Shown here piece after piece: positions 42,775-45,910 of a stretch of 61,281 nt of DNA. The notes beneath the pieces were generated by a model, which made no database searches, was not told where the DNA came from, and was given only the letters and a program-made list of their open reading frames with translations. Position 1 is the first letter of the stretch, and each line of letters starts with the position of its first letter. A program made the translations under genes and the position numbers. Source of the stretch: a virus (Duplodnaviria > Caudoviricetes); IMG/VR virus record IMGVR_UViG_3300030098_004783, positions 1-61,281 of that record; one strand, given 5' to 3'.

Positions 42775-43182
42775 ATGACCAAAAGTCTACAAGCAGAAGT
42801 CAAGAAGTTAACTAAAGAACTTAATATTCTTAAGGGAAAAGTTAACAATCTTGAGGGACACGTTGAAGCTCACGGTAAGACCCTTGAGGGGGACTTTATG
42901 AGAGCTGACAAAAACGTGAAGAAGAGAGGCCGTAAAAGTAAGAAGTCATCGTCTAAAAAACGTGTGATGGATACTGATGGCCTCTACTGTTGCACTAAGT
43001 GTAAGTTAGATGATTATTCATCTGACAAGTGGAAGAAGAAATTCGTTGGTAATATTCGAGTCTTTAGGGGCAAGAATTCCAAAAAGAATGCTTCAGAACA
43101 TCACTCTTTGCAAAAGGGCGCTGGCAAAGTCGGACATACAGCCAAACTGTATTCCACTGTGTTGGCCAAGCAGAAGAAATAA
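42775..43182 (+). CDS. Early protein: coiled coil, basic linker and possible Cys/His zinc site
   Basis: GGAGG RBS; heptad N-terminus; YCCTKC...HH...H. Confidence 0.75.
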   Translation: MTKSLQAEVKKLTKELNILKGKVNNLEGHVEAHGKTLEGDFMRADKNVKKRGRKSKKSSSKKRVMDTDGLYCCTKCKLDDYSSDKWKKKFVGNIRVFRGKNSKKNASEHHSLQKGAGKVGHTAKLYSTVLAKQKK

Positions 43183-43269
43183 ATAAGTAATTATTTGTTT
43201 CCATAAGTCAAGCCTGTGAAACTAACAACATCCCCATATCAGAAATGATTAACTGAGGATGAGGCACGG

Positions 43270-43299
43270 TATCCTGAGGCAAGATGTAAAACTGCCTCA
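43270..43299 (+). ncRNA. Compact H-type pseudoknot motif, copy 1
   Basis: TATC-CT-GAGGCA-A-GATG-TAAAAC-TGCCTC. Confidence 0.6.
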
Positions 43300-43347
43300 C
43301 ATCCGCTCATAGTCTTATGCTCCGGCATAGACGGGTAGGAAAAAAAA

Positions 43348-43527
43348 ATGTCAGAAGAAACAACATTTTGTCCTATATGTGGTAGTGAAAAAATATCACG
43401 TTTAGGAGGGCTTGATTCAGTTGGATTTTATTTCGATAAATTCCAATGTAGGACCTGTGGCTATAAGATGGAGGGCCACAAAGTGTATCTATCCTCGATA
43501 GATATAGAGACGGAGTTGATAAAATGA
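43348..43527 (+). CDS. 59-aa zinc-ribbon protein (not in ORF track)
   Basis: MSEETTFCPICGS...FQCRTCGY; ATGA coupling to the next gene. Confidence 0.75.
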   Translation: MSEETTFCPICGSEKISRLGGLDSVGFYFDKFQCRTCGYKMEGHKVYLSSIDIETELIK

Positions 43528-43760
43528 AAAGAGGACTAAGAAAATATGTATTACCTGACGGCAAAGTATATTATCTAAACAATGATTACAAGACCGGCGG
43601 AAAATACGAAACCAAAAATGGAAGACCAATATACGATGTTCTTCACAGATTCGAGGACGGAAAGAATGTAGAATACTTCAAAAAGGCCAAAGAAGTGACT
43701 GCTTGGAGAACATTCAACGTGAAAGACATCAAGGGCAAACTATTGGAGTTAGACGAATGA
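43524..43760 (+). CDS. Hypothetical protein
   Basis: GGAG RBS; ATGA overlaps at both ends. Confidence 0.7.
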   Translation: MKRGLRKYVLPDGKVYYLNNDYKTGGKYETKNGRPIYDVLHRFEDGKNVEYFKKAKEVTAWRTFNVKDIKGKLLELDE

Positions 43761-43933
43761 GAAGAAGACATATGCCTAGGCCAGTGATACCACATACTAT
43801 GAAAGCTCAACAGCAGACAGTATGTGGTTGGAATCTATCTGCACACGAATATGCTGCCACTCAGAATAGAAAGTGGCGACACGTGAACTGCAAGAGATGC
43901 TTGGATATGAGAGACAAAGGGGGTGAAGACTAG
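43757..43933 (+). CDS. 58-aa H..CG..CxxC zinc-finger protein (start revised)
   Basis: MRRRHMP...H...TVCG...VNCKRC; ATGA overlap. Confidence 0.65.
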   Translation: MRRRHMPRPVIPHTMKAQQQTVCGWNLSAHEYAATQNRKWRHVNCKRCLDMRDKGGED

Positions 43934-44107
43934 GTAGGCCATCGGGCCCTCCGTTCTGTAGTTACTTATTTTTATCCATAGCCTATTGCACACCCACTCG
44001 CGCGCCCGCGCGCCTGCGCGCAGGGCCTTGACGATAAAAAGTCTCCTACGTGAGACCTCCCGCACACTTGCGTCAGGAACTCGCATTCGGGAATCACTCC
44101 AAGCTCA

Positions 44108-44165
44108 CGGAGGTGTAGACACACGTGGCCTTGACGTCGTCTATTCCAAAGCTTTATATAGAACC
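44108..44165 (+). promoter_or_regulatory. Strong early promoter, copy 1 (upstream palindrome, BRE and TATA)
   Basis: CGGAGGTGTAGACACAC...CTATTCCAAAGCTTTATATAGAACC; 51/58 identical to 45368..45425. Confidence 0.8.
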
Positions 44166-44183
44166 GTCGTTTCTGTGCTGACG

Positions 44184-44807
44184 GTGACAAATGTGAAAAC
44201 GAACACAGACACACAGAAGCTTGAGCACATACCTACACGTATGCTCAAAGCCGAGCTTGAACGTCGTGATAACGGCAGAACATACGCAGACGTATACGAA
44301 CGTTGCGGAGTTAGTGACGAGCATAAAGACCTGTTCGACGAGGTCGTATATGCGATATGCACAGAGGGAAAGACCATCACGGAGGTTTCCACACCTACCC
44401 GTGCAGGGTTCATACACGGTAATGCGAAGAATTGGGTTCGCAACGCAGGAAACCTACGTGGGTTCAGGGAACTTTGTGGTTCCCACACACCTACGGATTC
44501 GACCACATTCGAAGCACAACCTATGTCCGTGCCTGAGAACGTATGCAGAACCTACCTCGAGTCACGTAGGAAGGCAGGAAACGGCTTTACGACCACAATG
44601 ACGATGGTCGAGACAGGCACGTATAAGGGCAATCCCTTTGGGATTGTGCAGAATACGAACAGCAAACGCTGGGTTATCGGACAGGTGACTAAGCTCGACA
44701 AGGTCGTAGCCATACCTATGACACGTGGAGCCTACAAAAACGTAGACAAGGAGACCAAAGGTCAACGTATGGTATGCGAAATACCTGTGTTCGACCCTCA
44801 AGGTTAA
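44184..44807 (+). CDS. Hypothetical early protein, probably leaderless (start revised to GTG 44184)
   Basis: In-frame GTG 31 nt after the first T of the TATA; the upstream part of the track ORF crosses promoter and GC-repeat sequence. Confidence 0.7.
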   Translation: MTNVKTNTDTQKLEHIPTRMLKAELERRDNGRTYADVYERCGVSDEHKDLFDEVVYAICTEGKTITEVSTPTRAGFIHGNAKNWVRNAGNLRGFRELCGSHTPTDSTTFEAQPMSVPENVCRTYLESRRKAGNGFTTTMTMVETGTYKGNPFGIVQNTNSKRWVIGQVTKLDKVVAIPMTRGAYKNVDKETKGQRMVCEIPVFDPQG

Positions 44808-44821
44808 GCACACACACCTAA

Positions 44822-44849
44822 CTACCTGAGCACGTAGGGAAACTGCTCA
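44822..44849 (+). ncRNA. Compact H-type pseudoknot motif, copy 2
   Basis: CTAC-CT-GAGCA-C-GTAG-GGAAAC-TGCTC; starts 15 nt after the stop codon. Confidence 0.6.
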
Positions 44850-44875
44850 CTACGTTCATAGACGTGCGTAGGGGC

Positions 44876-44900
44876 GGGGCGAAGCCCCTTATTATCTTTT
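44876..44900 (+). terminator. Hairpin plus T-rich tract, probable terminator
   Basis: GGGGC-GAA-GCCCC followed by TTATTATCTTTT. Confidence 0.5.
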
Positions 44901-44904
44901 ATCC

Positions 44905-45367
44905 ATACGTGCGTAGGGTGTCACACGCGCCTACGCGCGTAGATTTCATCATCAGCAGGGCCTACGTGCGTATACGTGCGTATGTGAACGTAAAGAGGCT
45001 CTCTCGTCTACGTGCGTATACGTATGTATGCGAACGTTAGTGCTGGGGGTCAGATGTTCTTATACGTGCGGACGGATATTAGAGAGAATAAGTGCTGTTG
45101 CTGATACGTATACGTATATTACGTATGTATATACATATATGAACATATACGAACATCTACGTATAAGAACATCTACGAACGTATGAGAGAGAGAGGGGCT
45201 ATACACATACGTATGAGAACATAGAACATATATGTATATATATATACGTAGAAGTATGTCCTCTAATAACACAGATGCTATGTGTTTATAGCGTGGGTCT
45301 CGTGCGTGTGTGTCGCGGGTGTGACGTGCGGGTGATGTGGGGGTGTGTGTGGGGGTGTGTCACGGGT
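44905..45367. repeat. Non-coding low-complexity tract of alternating purine-pyrimidine repeats ending in a G-rich segment
   Basis: Repeated TACGTGCGTA, TATACGTA and GAACAT units, (TA)n, then GGG/GGGGG runs separated by GT repeats. Confidence 0.75.
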
Positions 45368-45425
45368 CGGAGGTGTAGACACACACGGCTTCAACATCCT
45401 CTATTCCAAAGCTTTATATAGAACC
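45368..45425 (+). promoter_or_regulatory. Strong early promoter, copy 2
   Basis: Direct repeat of 44108..44165, 1260 bp downstream; ATG 33 nt after the first T of the TATA. Confidence 0.8.
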
Positions 45426-45445
45426 CCAACTCTGAGCTTGGTAAG

Positions 45446-45910
45446 ATGTTTCGAAGTGAAGCGTTGAGGGATATCTCATCCCCGTGTGAGCAAGTCGGTG
45501 ACACTCTCCCTGAGTGTGCACGGGCTACGGCAGGGTCTCCTCACCCTGTCCGCCCATTCAGTTGGGCAATCGCCGAACAATACGCATTGTCTACGGATGA
45601 TGTGTTAGCGTGGCGAAGTGCGTGGTGTTCGTATAGGAATGCGTATAACCACGAAGAACCAGCCGTGCCAAACGAGGAGTTGGCAACGTATTCACGTGAG
45701 TCCCCATATCACGTGCAACATATACGTATGGCAGGAAAGTATGCGGATTCGATGGGCAACTATCACAAGGCCTACGCAAGTGACAGGACATCGAACCCAC
45801 TTGACCTCACAAACGCATCACTACGTGACTTCACGATAGCGATGGCGAAGGATGATAAGGCAGGTATCCTACGTGCCTTTGAGTATGCAGGATGGGACAC
45901 AAAGGAGTGA
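45446..45910 (+). CDS. Hypothetical early protein (probably leaderless)
   Basis: ATG at the expected distance from the TATA; first gene of a coupled series. Confidence 0.7.
   Translation: MFRSEALRDISSPCEQVGDTLPECARATAGSPHPVRPFSWAIAEQYALSTDDVLAWRSAWCSYRNAYNHEEPAVPNEELATYSRESPYHVQHIRMAGKYADSMGNYHKAYASDRTSNPLDLTNASLRDFTIAMAKDDKAGILRAFEYAGWDTKE

What the first reader, a model, noticed from the sequence alone, without database searches (positions are those of the whole stretch)
43257..44849. Recurrent compact pseudoknot with covariation downstream of early genes
Seen: two elements share the architecture S1-CT-S2-N-S1'-xxAAAC-S2'. These are TATC-CT-GAGGCA-A-GATG-TAAAAC-TGCCTC (43270) and CTAC-CT-GAGCA-C-GTAG-GGAAAC-TGCTC (44822). 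Stem sequences and lengths differ but pairing is kept, while CCTGAG and AAACTG are conserved. Both follow the first gene of an early transcript and precede another hairpin. Copy 1 has a second upstream TGAGGCA (43260) that could form a competing hairpin (GGATGAGGCA with TGCCTCACATCC). Inference: an RNA device such as a nuclease block, processing site, antiterminator or protein decoy, possibly switchable.
Basis: partly seen in the sequence, partly recalled or inferred. Interest (0 to 1): 0.75.

Follow-up and report, generated by a model that had tools for sequence, protein, structure and literature searches.

The report
Widespread phage pseudoknot behind stop codons
The two look-alike stretches are real copies of a tiny, uncatalogued knot-shaped RNA that phages of many bacterial groups place just after a gene's stop codon, often right before an RNA cutting site, where it most likely shields the end of the upstream message.

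Summary
Both elements exist as described (43269-43299 and 44822-44849, + strand). They belong to a large family of 27-32-nt H-type pseudoknots: S1 (3-6 covarying pairs closed by C-G), C, S2a UGAGYA, one base, S1b, N1-3AAAC, S2b UGCUC(A). All 144 instances from the less biased scan keep S1 pairing, and S2 shows compensatory changes. Rfam 15 has no match and my paper searches found no description.

Of 278 instances, 190 have a co-directional ORF ending within 30 nt upstream, with a sharp minimum spacing (mode 5-6 nt between stop and S1). Downstream, 27 are followed within 20 nt by a tRNA, 6 abut a type III hammerhead, 11 abut DUF2800 RNA, and 134 precede an ORF start.

Best reading, untested: an always-folded roadblock that caps the 3' boundary of the upstream cistron after downstream cleavage or before a terminator. 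The proposed switch is not conserved in the one close relative.

Earlier notes of this scan describe what appears to be the same knot on other DNA, with the same reading.

The parts
43269..43299 (+). Pseudoknot copy 1 (PK1). It is the variant with a 7-bp S2 (UGAGGCA/UGCCUCA). S1 is UAUC/GAUG with one G-U pair. L3 ends in AAAC.
   Evidence: 13.5 bits, E 0.022. Other family members also carry a 7-bp S2 with a compensated inserted pair.
44822..44850 (+). Pseudoknot copy 2 (PK2), the canonical form: CUAC-C-UGAGCA-C-GUAG-GGAAAC-UGCUCA-C.
   Evidence: 43.8 bits, E 2.8e-12. It is conserved in relative G001 with one change in L3.
42775..43182 (+). First plus-strand (early-side) ORF, 135 aa, upstream of PK1. 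Its stop lies 90 nt before the CC of PK1.
   Evidence: No PHROG family was found.
43316..43329 (+). Small hairpin UAUGC-UCCG-GCAUA between PK1 and the start codon at 43348.
   Evidence: It is nucleotide-identical in relative G001 while its flanks diverge. It is part of the MFE fold and gives a weak resemblance to Rfam Bacteroides-1 (19 bits against a gathering score of 43).
43348..43527 (+). ORF downstream of PK1 (59 aa). Its start lies 48 nt after S2b.
44108..44165 (+). 58-nt promoter-like repeat (second copy at 45368-45425, 88% identical) in front of the ORF that precedes PK2.
   Evidence: family D4. The promoter function is inferred only.
44241..44807 (+). ORF upstream of PK2 (in-frame starts at GTG 44193 or ATG 44241). 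The stop TAA 44805-44807 lies 14 nt before the first S1 pair.
   Evidence: No PHROG family was found. The syntenic ORF is present in G001.
44870..44889 (+). Terminator-like hairpin with a T-rich tail, 20 nt after PK2.
43257..43266 (+).
   Evidence: Present. It is not conserved in G001 and is not a family feature.

Best explanation
Both elements are members of a large, uncatalogued family of compact H-type RNA pseudoknots made on the strand of the flanking genes.

Shown here: the fold is S1 (3-6 freely covarying pairs closed by C-G), a one-base loop 1 (C), a nearly invariant 5-7-bp S2, one junction base, and a 5-7-nt loop 3 ending in AAAC. The knot is placed a few bases behind a co-directional stop codon.

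Inferred: the knot folds on its own and stays folded, because it sits just outside the reach of the terminating ribosome. It then acts as a mechanical roadblock that marks and protects the 3' boundary of the upstream cistron. When the long phage message is cut just downstream, the upstream piece ends in the knot plus a tail of a few bases, so 3'-to-5' exonucleases cannot digest back into the coding region. The cut can come from an abutting hammerhead, from RNase P at an adjacent tRNA, or from a host endonuclease in the short spacer before the next ribosome-binding site.

In this window, PK1 would cap the message of the first early gene (42775-43182). PK2 would back up the weak terminator of the unit at 44193/44241-44807.
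For: Fold.
- In 89 distinct 26-nt-class copies, the S1 pair at columns 9-22 is paired in 89 of 89 with four pair types, and columns 10-21 are paired in 88 of 89.
- Overall 91.7% of cells are paired, against 23-37% when the partners are slid. 0 of 500 shuffles reach the observed covariation score.
- All 144 instances from a scan that did not fix S1 or the 3' tail have at least 3 S1 pairs.
- S2 compensations: C-G becomes U-G in 34 of 89 copies or U-A in others; UAGGCA pairs with UGCCUA; UGGGUA pairs with UGCCCA; and an inserted seventh pair occurs as C-G, A-U, U-A or G-C.
- The frequent U-G wobble fits RNA on this strand and does not fit a DNA palindrome.

Placement.
- 190 of 278 instances have a same-strand ORF ending within 30 nt upstream, against 54 of 278 in the antisense control.
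- The distance from stop to CC starts abruptly at 8 nt (40 cases), then 9 nt (23), 10 (12), 11 (18) and 12 (17). Only 7 cases fall at 0-7 nt.
- The spacer from stop to the first S1 pair peaks at 5-6 nt, and only 6 of 180 are under 4 nt.

Link to cleavage sites.
- 27 of 278 instances have a tRNA starting 4-14 nt after UGCUC.
- In an overlapping set of 215 instances, the only same-strand upstream tRNA found in the 300 nt examined lies 143 nt away, and adjacent tRNAs have no knot between them.
- In 6 of 278, a type III hammerhead begins at or within 6 nt of the knot's 3' end, so self-cleavage would leave the knot plus 6-13 nt on the upstream product.
- L130 is an array of knot-hammerhead-ORF-knot-hammerhead-ORF.
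- In these settings the knot is severed from the downstream RNA, so any role it has must concern the upstream RNA or the cut itself.

Published context: hammerheads flank single genes in prophages, implying processing of long transcripts (PMC3088659, passages read).
Against: - No expression or end-mapping data exist for any copy. No RNA run holds this phage.
- A plain roadblock does not obviously need the near-invariant S2 and loop sequences kept across phages of many phyla. That degree of conservation looks more like a binding or catalytic site.
- In 134 of 278 instances the next element is simply an ORF start and no cutting device is visible.
- Where a terminator follows, as at PK2, a second protective structure seems redundant.
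- PK1 lies 90 nt, not 5-15 nt, behind the nearest long ORF.
- The direction of protection (3' cap or 5' block) is inferred from 33 of 278 contexts (27 tRNA and 6 hammerhead).
Confidence: 0.42

Rival explanations
1. The knot is an xrRNA-like block against 5'-to-3' decay or against ribosomes. It insulates the downstream unit (next cistron, tRNA, ribozyme, DUF2800 RNA or terminator) from 5'-to-3' exonucleases such as RNase J. It also keeps terminating or sliding ribosomes coming from the upstream gene off that unit.
For: - The knot resembles the coremin Xrn1-resistant motif as described in PMC10520033 (passages read). Coremin is a short hairpin whose loop follows a YGAD consensus, then a spacer containing UUAAAC, then a second hairpin. 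It stalls Xrn1 one base upstream of the hairpin and also stalls scanning ribosomes.
- Both window copies are followed by a hairpin.
- The knot sits exactly at the leading edge of a terminating ribosome.
- The element that follows is often a structured RNA that must fold: 27 tRNA, 11 DUF2800 RNA and 6 hammerheads of 278.
Against: - Where a hammerhead or RNase P cuts just downstream, the knot is detached from the RNA it would protect.
- Many host groups are not known to me to use a 5'-to-3' exonuclease (recalled, not tested).
- The coremin loop is 4-8 nt and is not reported to form a 5-6-bp second stem.
Confidence: 0.15
2. The knot mimics a tRNA acceptor arm and is cut by RNase P in loop 1, between the conserved U and the G that starts S2. 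It would therefore be a host-operated processing site. The cut would leave the downstream RNA with a 5'-terminal hairpin.
For: - S2 stacked on S1 ends in a 3' single strand, like an acceptor stem.
- The conserved U(-1), the G(+1)-C pair and an A after UGCUC (100 of 144 instances) match known RNase P preferences. ACCA is the commonest 4-mer tail.
- Bacterial RNase P cleaves a small H-type pseudoknot in loop 1 when a 3' RCCA is present. The T2/T4 gene 32 pseudoknot is followed by ACCA. Whether pseudoknots are RNase P targets in vivo is called an open question (PMC12710915, passages read).
Against: - ACCA follows only 14 of 144 knots, and neither window copy has it. In the model substrate, no cleavage was seen without the RCC motif.
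- A processing site placed directly in front of a hammerhead or a tRNA 5' end would be redundant.
- The helix is 9-11 bp, not 12 bp.
Confidence: 0.12
3. The knot is a binding site, either an aptamer for a small molecule or a site for a widely shared protein. It would regulate the neighbouring genes or a downstream terminator. This includes the first reader's switch and antiterminator ideas.
For: - The pattern of a free S1 against a fixed S2 and fixed loops resembles pseudoknot riboswitch aptamers (recalled comparison).
- PK2 and about ten cellular copies are followed by terminators. In the cellular copies the UGA of the motif is the stop codon of a conserved 20-aa micro-ORF, so translation must melt the knot.
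- Both window copies have flanking repeats of S1 strands that could compete with S1.
Against: - S2b does not contain a ribosome-binding site, and the start codon lies mostly 20-36 nt away.
- No alternative pairing is conserved in the family or in G001.
- There is no common neighbouring gene. Upstream Pfam hits are DUF932 in 18 of 149, Hsp20 in 6 of 149, and otherwise scattered; downstream genes are diverse.
- There is no Rfam riboswitch match.
Confidence: 0.1
4. The knot is itself a very small self-cleaving ribozyme.
For: It occupies the same intergenic slots as hammerheads and has about 20 conserved positions in 30 nt.
Against: - It is frequently fused to a complete hammerhead, which would make a second cutter pointless.
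- It has no similarity to any Rfam ribozyme.
- All conserved positions can be explained by the two stems and two groove-crossing loops.
Confidence: 0.05
5. The element works as DNA (operator, promoter or origin element), or the similarity is chance.
For: - S2a and S2b form an inverted repeat.
- PK2 borders an iteron-rich and AT-rich region.
- In phages of about 100 kb, several copies sit next to DnaA-box-like repeats.
Against: - There are two interleaved covarying helices, with U-G wobble in 34 of 89 copies.
- The orientation follows the genes strictly (190 against 54 of 278).
- Chance is excluded.
Confidence: 0.02

Closest known systems
Hammerhead 'punctuation' of phage and prophage operons (Perreault et al. 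2011, PMC3088659; Rfam RF00008)
   Same: Both occupy the same intergenic slots between small phage genes. Both imply that a long transcript is processed into gene-length units. The knot is physically fused to type III hammerheads in 6 of 278 cases.
   Different: The knot has no hammerhead core and no Rfam ribozyme match. It is probably not a cutter but the structure left on the upstream product. The passages I read do not mention it.
Coremin Xrn1-resistant RNA (xrRNA-C) of plant and fungal RNA viruses (PMC10520033)
   Same: Both are very small (about 30 nt). Both have a short hairpin whose loop begins with a pyrimidine, followed by a spacer containing UUAAAC and then another structure. Coremin blocks a processive exonuclease and ribosomes, and is found in UTRs and intergenic regions.
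   Different: The coremin loop is 4-8 nt with a YGAD-type consensus, and no 5-6-bp second stem is reported. It needs a second hairpin, acts against the eukaryotic 5'-to-3' Xrn1, and occurs in eukaryotic RNA viruses. Any relation of fold to the phage knot is untested.
T2/T4/RB69 gene 32 mRNA leader pseudoknot
   Same: It is a phage H-type pseudoknot of two coaxial helices in an mRNA untranslated region. It is followed by ACCA and is discussed as a possible RNase P substrate (PMC3014915; PMC12710915).
   Different: It lies 67 nt upstream of one specific gene (the ssDNA-binding protein) and nucleates gp32 binding on an A+U-rich leader for autoregulation. The present family has no fixed gene partner and tracks the upstream stop codon.
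Pseudoknotted RNase P substrates: TYMV-type tRNA-like acceptor arm and the biotin-aptamer pseudoknot with added GCCAC
   Same: All are compact H-type pseudoknots whose second stem ends in a 3' single strand. In the model substrates, cleavage falls in loop 1.
   Different: Those substrates need a 3' RCCA, whereas only 14 of 144 family members have ACCA. One model is artificial and the other lies at the 3' end of a plant virus genome.
Luteovirus-type frameshift-stimulating pseudoknots (recalled from memory, not read here)
   Same: They share the architecture: a short S1, a 1-2-nt loop 1 containing C, a junction base and an A-rich loop 3. They also share the 5-8-nt spacing from the ribosomal A-site codon.
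   Different: Here the A-site codon is a stop codon, not a slippery heptamer. No overlapping reading frame continues; PK2 is followed by a terminator.

Membership tests
This pseudoknot family (defined here; model R1) | S1 of at least 3 pairs closed by C-G, with a partner strand directly after S2a plus one base | tested here: met
   PK1 has UAUC/GAUG and PK2 has CUAC/GUAG. In the family, all 144 instances meet this, and covariation is shown.
This pseudoknot family (defined here; model R1) | Loop 1 is C, S2 is UGAGYA paired with UGCUC(A), and loop 3 ends in AAAC | tested here: met
   PK2 matches exactly (43.8 bits). PK1 has the 7-bp S2 variant with a compensated G-C insertion (13.5 bits, E 0.022).
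This pseudoknot family (defined here; model R1) | Placed behind a co-directional stop codon with at least 4 nt of spacer | tested here: met
   PK2 lies 14 nt from the stop to S1. PK1 lies 87 nt behind the long ORF, and 12 nt behind a 3-codon mini-ORF of doubtful meaning.
Any Rfam 15 family | Match at the curated gathering score | tested here: not met
   The window gave 0 matches. The permissive scan of 43150-45000 gave only sub-threshold chance-level hits. In 20 and in 4 related loci, only DUF2800 RNA, tRNA and Hammerhead_3 matched, and none covered the knot.
Programmed -1 frameshift or readthrough stimulator | Slippery heptamer or leaky stop 5-9 nt upstream, with an extended or overlapping reading frame through the knot | tested here: not met
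   No XXXYYYZ heptamer lies before either copy. PK2 is followed by a terminator. Family stop-to-knot distances show no frame preference relative to the internal UGA.
RNase P pseudoknot substrate or tRNA-like acceptor arm | 3' RCCA after the acceptor-like stem | tested here: not met
   The tails are ACAUCC (PK1) and ACUACG (PK2). ACCA occurs in 14 of 144 family members.
RNase P pseudoknot substrate or tRNA-like acceptor arm | Cleavage by RNase P in loop 1 | not testable with these tools
   This needs an enzyme assay. The precedent comes only from PMC12710915.
Coremin xrRNA-C | A 4-bp hairpin with a YGAD (or YGNNAD) loop, an 8-10-nt spacer and a second hairpin | tested here: not met
   The loop here is 8-9 nt and pairs with the 3' strand. 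A following hairpin is present at both window copies but is not general in the family.
Coremin xrRNA-C | Stalls a processive exonuclease | not testable with these tools
   This needs digestion assays.
T4-type gene 32 translational operator | Pseudoknot about 67 nt upstream of the ssDNA-binding protein gene, followed by an A+U-rich unstructured leader over the ribosome-binding site | tested here: not met
   The downstream ORFs in the window have no PHROG family. PK2 has no downstream gene before a terminator. Family neighbours are diverse.
Pseudoknot riboswitches (preQ1, SAM-II and similar) | Rfam match, and S2b sequestering the ribosome-binding site or forming part of a terminator | tested here: not met
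   There is no Rfam match. S2b is UGCUC(A), mostly 20-36 nt from start codons.

The most novel reading that the evidence does not exclude
The near-invariant S2 and loops, kept in phages of more than ten bacterial phyla while S1 drifts freely, exist because the knot is an active site. It would then be either the smallest natural self-cleaving or ligand-binding RNA yet found, or a universal prokaryotic counterpart of the eukaryotic-virus xrRNAs whose fold arrests the conserved RNA-degrading or translating machines of all bacteria.
Probability: 0.15. Interest if true: 0.93.

Novelty: new variant of a known kind. Interest (0 to 1): 0.77.

Why it matters
If the reading holds, phages of very different hosts share one portable 30-nt device that defines and protects the ends of gene-length messages cut from long transcripts. 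That would be a missing partner of the long-unexplained hammerhead and tRNA 'punctuation' of phage operons. It would give bacteria-infecting viruses an analogue of the exonuclease-resistant RNAs known from eukaryotic viruses. It would supply a very small, host-independent mRNA stabiliser or insulator for synthetic biology. It would also explain part of the unannotated intergenic sequence in viromes. Whatever the function, the family deserves an Rfam entry: it is easy to recognise, abundant, and marks transcript orientation and gene ends in uncultured phage genomes.

Tried and rejected
- **RNA evidence.** No RNA run holds this marine phage. Laying three metatranscriptome contig sets and one DNA set gave no RNA cover.
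- **Close relatives.**
  - blastn of 43000-45500 against named phages gave no match.
  - A protein-pattern scan with the ORF before PK2 found no relative.
  - One relative (G001) came only through the motif scan.
- **Named phages carrying the knot.**
  - blastn of two motif loci gave only tRNA-level or unannotated hits.
  - DUF932 homologues exist in 631 named records.
  - The one record I scanned, Streptomyces phage Jay2Jay, has no knot (best 10 bits, E 0.67).
- **Rfam Bacteroides-1** (19 bits against a gathering score of 43). The match lies on the hairpin after PK1, not on the knot, and is below threshold. The sR42 hit (E 0.47) is a structureless chance match.
- **Switch hypothesis.** The upstream duplicate is not conserved.
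- **DNA operator reading.** Rejected because of the U-G wobble and the strand bias.
- **Frameshift reading.** Rejected.
- **Micro-ORF family.** No NCBIfam hit for 0 of 8 peptides. Only two unnamed homologues were found.
- **Fremin et al. 2023 catalogue** (PMC10690425). The motif words are absent from the six supplementary files that could be searched. Files 1 and 2 gave no searchable text and file 4 was not fetched. Where the alignments lie I did not establish, so the knot may be among their 10,006 unnamed candidates.
- **Paper searches that found no description of this knot.**
- **False positives set aside.**
  - L009 is a mitovirus-like contig with a plain hairpin.
  - L025, L029, L036 and L058 lack S1 or S2 pairing.
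  - L198 has a hammerhead-like regex hit without a ribozyme fold.
- **Earlier-findings look-ups.** By sequence and by place they gave nothing.
Full report
**1. What the window is**

The window is a complete 61,281-nt uncultured virus record, rated 100% complete by CheckV. It comes from marine metagenomes.
- Minus-strand structural genes (large terminase, tape measure, a virion structural protein) fill about 2-42 kb.
- Plus-strand genes follow (amidotransferase-like protein, Cas4-like nuclease, DNA polymerase, ribonucleotide reductase).
- The finding lies at the start of the plus-strand block.

**2. The observation**

Both elements are present as written.
- The shared words occur exactly twice in the window, both on the + strand. 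Chance expectation is 0.10, and 0 of 100 shuffles gave two.
- A structural descriptor finds nothing else comparable on the + strand.
- Rfam 15 has no match at gathering thresholds in the window. A permissive scan of 43150-45000 gave only chance-level hits.

**3. It is a large family**

*Scans.*
- Chance hits should have spread evenly over the allowed lengths. Instead, 92 of 133 matches had one length, 26 nt.
- All 144 distinct instances from that scan had the C-G pair plus two further S1 pairs.
- A stricter pattern hit 88 loci in bacterial genomes and MAGs.

*Host range.* By record titles, those 88 loci include:
- Actinomycetes and Bifidobacterium
- several Bacillota lineages
- Bacteroidia
- Alpha-, Beta-, Gamma- and Deltaproteobacteria
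- Cyanobacteria
- Chloroflexota
- Saccharibacteria and other Patescibacteria
- Omnitrophota, Aminicenantes, Atribacterota, KSB1, Poribacteria and Lentisphaerota-like bacteria
- one Nitrososphaera MAG

Most records are MAGs, so some contigs may be misbinned phage. Neighbouring genes are phage or mobile-element genes such as integrase, resolvase, Mom, ArdC-like, scaffold and CHAP.

*Copy number.* Five complete or nearly complete phage genomes of about 100 kb carry 4-7 copies each at E <= 0.001, mostly clustered within 3-5 kb.

**4. The fold**

*S1.* On 89 distinct 26-nt-class copies:
- The closing pair is C-G in 87 of 89.
- The next two pairs are paired in 88 of 89 and 89 of 89, with up to four pair types. 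A fourth pair forms in 71 of 89 and a fifth in 30 of 89.
- Overall 91.7% of cells pair, against 23-37% when partners are slid by 1-3 columns. 0 of 500 shuffles reach the observed covariation score.
- Among the 278 instances, S1 is 3, 4, 5 or 6 pairs long in 65, 146, 50 and 17 cases.

*Loops.* Loop 3 is mostly 5-7 nt and always ends in AAAC, by the pattern used. Loops 2 and 3 tolerate insertions, including a whole hairpin in loop 2.

*S2.* S2 is nearly invariant, but it is a helix:
- Position 5 is C-G in 55 of 89 copies and U-G in 34 of 89.
- Further copies found by the covariance model in the flanks of the scanned loci do not depend on the pattern. They show U-A at that position, UAGGCA with UGCCUA, UGGGUA with UGCCCA, a flipped G-C closing pair of S1, and a seventh pair inserted as C-G, A-U, U-A or G-C. 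PK1 is of the last kind.
- A subclass has AAAAGGCUC in place of AAACUGCUC.
- The abundant U-G wobble places the pairing in RNA on the gene strand.

*Geometry.* A single-base loop 1 across a 6-7-bp S2, and a 5-7-nt A-rich loop 3 along a 3-6-bp S1, is the classical geometry of a compact H-type pseudoknot. That comparison is recalled textbook knowledge, not tested here.

**5. Where the family sits**

I classified 278 distinct instances, 200 viral and 78 from genomes.

*Upstream.*
- 190 have a same-strand ORF ending within 30 nt, against 54 in an antisense control.
- The distance from the end of the stop codon to the CC rises abruptly at 8 nt (40 cases), then 23, 12, 18 and 17 cases at 9-12 nt. 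Only 7 cases fall at 0-7 nt.
- Counted to the first S1 pair, the spacer peaks at 5-6 nt. It is under 4 nt in 6 of 180 cases.
- With the stop codon in the ribosomal A site, this puts the first pair at about the mRNA entrance of the ribosome. The position of the entrance is recalled, not tested here.
- So the knot sits as close to the stop as it can without being melted by the terminating ribosome.

*Downstream.*
- 134 have an ORF start within 60 nt, mostly 20-36 nt away.
- 27 have a tRNA beginning 4-14 nt after UGCUC.
- 11 have the Rfam DUF2800 RNA. In 10 loci checked, its model starts on the last base of the knot (124-160 bits).
- 7 show a hammerhead core, of which I accept 6.
- 6 have a terminator-like hairpin.
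- 93 have nothing I could classify.

*tRNA asymmetry.* In an overlapping set of 215 instances, 21 had a tRNA 3-12 nt downstream. The only same-strand upstream tRNA found in the 300 nt examined lies 143 nt away. Adjacent tRNAs have no knot between them. The knot therefore belongs to the ORF-to-tRNA junction, not to tRNAs as such.

**6. The hammerhead fusions**

- In L130 and L143, Rfam Hammerhead_3 matches (E 2e-6 to 6e-9) overlap the last four bases of the knot.
- Reading the sequences shows that the 5' strand of stem III starts at the base after UGCUC (L130, L143, L155, L177, L230) or 6 nt later (L226). Cleavage would then fall 6-13 nt behind the knot.
- The hammerheads of L155, L177, L226 and L230 were recognised by eye and by a core pattern, not by Rfam.
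- L130 reads knot-hammerhead-ORF (60 aa)-knot-hammerhead-ORF.
- After self-cleavage each message would begin with the body of a hammerhead and end with a knot plus a short tail.
- Perreault et al. reported that hammerheads flank single genes in prophages and proposed processing into gene-length mRNAs (PMC3088659, passages read). I saw no mention of the knot there.

**7. Mechanism**

*Shown.* A conserved, covarying pseudoknot on the sense strand; its tight coupling to upstream stop codons; and its position immediately 5' of cleavage sites in 33 of 278 cases (27 tRNA and 6 hammerhead).

*Inferred.*
- Cleavage detaches the knot from whatever lies downstream in those cases, so its role there must concern the upstream RNA or the cut itself.
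- tRNA-tRNA junctions, where both sides are already structured, lack the knot.
- The simplest single function is therefore a 3'-terminal cap: a structure that stays folded during translation of the upstream gene and stops 3'-to-5' exonucleases from entering it.
- Where only a spacer and ribosome-binding site follow, the same barrier would work after a host endonuclease cut, or against decay spreading from downstream cistrons. Where a terminator follows, it would back the terminator up.

I put this at about 0.4.

*The main weakness.* A passive barrier does not obviously require the near-invariant S2 and loops.

*Alternatives kept open.*
- A coremin-like block to 5'-to-3' exonucleases or ribosomes (PMC10520033, passages read).
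- An RNase P site. U(-1), the G(+1)-C pair and an A 'discriminator' are conserved, but ACCA follows only 14 of 144 knots. The model pseudoknot needed RCCA (PMC12710915, passages read).
- A ligand or protein site.
- A ribozyme.

**8. This window**

*PK1.*
- It lies between the first plus-strand ORF (42775-43182) and a block of three small ORFs starting at 43348. It is 90 nt behind the stop.
- It is followed by a small hairpin at 43316-43329. This hairpin is nucleotide-identical in relative G001 although the flanks and even the downstream gene differ.

*PK2.*
- It lies 17 nt (stop to CC) behind an ORF that has its own 58-nt promoter-like repeat. A terminator-like hairpin follows 20 nt after PK2.

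*Relative G001.*
- G001 is 56.8 kb, 93% complete and 75-93% identical over 44.7-47 kb. It has both knots in synteny.
- G001's copy of PK1 has the canonical 6-bp S2 and lacks the upstream duplicate.
- The proposed switch is therefore not conserved, and nested folding does not favour it.

**9. Novelty**

- There is no Rfam 15 family.
- Eight full-text searches found no description.
- The theta-ribozyme paper (PMC10879173, passages read) and the T4 review (PMC3014915, passages read) do not mention it.
- The 10,006 unnamed candidates of PMC10690425 may include it. Three of its supplementary files were not searched.
- Earlier notes of this scan describe, on other genomes, a 27-32-base uncatalogued pseudoknot behind phage stop codons and before hammerheads, read as a 3' cap. 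These notes are unchecked AI notes, and I could not compare sequences. They agree with what I derived, before I saw them.

Noticed in passing
window 44850-45430: A non-coding, repeat-rich stretch directly after PK2. It holds iteron-like ACGTGCGTA and TACGTATACGTAT repeats, AT-rich palindromes, and DnaA-box-like TTATCCATA at 44899-44907 (also at 43972-43980). It looks like a replication origin.
   Followed up: partly
window 44108-44165 and 45368-45425: A 58-nt direct repeat (88% identical) with TTGACG...TATATA-like hexamers in front of two ORFs. These are probably phage promoters.
   Followed up: no
window 43316-43340: The hairpin UAUGC-UCCG-GCAUA plus GAC.GGUA.GA just before a start codon resembles the 3' half of Rfam Bacteroides-1 (19 bits against 43). 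It is identical in relative G001. This may hint at a Bacteroidota host.
   Followed up: partly
L168, L190, L183, L184, L172, L199, L187, L159, L214, L134 (genome/MAG loci): A conserved micro-ORF of about 20 aa (M-K/H-R-F-x-I-P-R-V-A-H-C-x-x-G-C-x-x-x-S) uses the UGA inside the knot's CCUGAG as its stop codon and is followed by a terminator. It occurs in cellular contigs of several phyla, once beside a MerA-like gene and once beside an ArsM-like methyltransferase. It has no NCBIfam family and only two unnamed homologues.
   Followed up: partly
L194, L195, L206 (CP054675.1, Ca. Tepidiaquacella): A CRISPR array with a 30-nt repeat (35 copies in 2.4 kb) has at least four spacers that contain the whole knot. 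The host therefore targets this conserved multi-copy phage sequence.
   Followed up: partly
L019, L067, L135, L138, L157, L167, L171, L181, L197, L205: The Rfam DUF2800 RNA (RF02960, function unknown) starts on the last base of the knot in all ten loci.
   Followed up: partly
L007, L017, L018, L028, L031, L037, L039, L040, L065, L068, L072, L203 and others: A recurrent order of DUF932 gene, knot, tRNA-Asp(GUC) in phages of about 100 kb. Further knots nearby are preceded by a hairpin TAGTAG-GGGG-CTACTA and followed by DnaA-box repeats (TTATCCACA).
   Followed up: partly
L039:225, L026:2028 and 1684, L053:1231, L044:2699, L007:2698, L166:599, L100:207, L204:171: A subclass of the knot has AAAAGGCUC instead of AAACUGCUC. 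Two adjacent bases change together.
   Followed up: no
window 43996-44030 and the syntenic place in G001: A GC-rich tract of CGCGCGCC-type repeats in an otherwise 38% GC genome, upstream of the promoter-like repeat. Its function is unknown.
   Followed up: no
window 44808: One DNA run carries a variant with CA inserted in the CACACA run between the stop codon and PK2. This lengthens the spacer by 2 nt.
   Followed up: no
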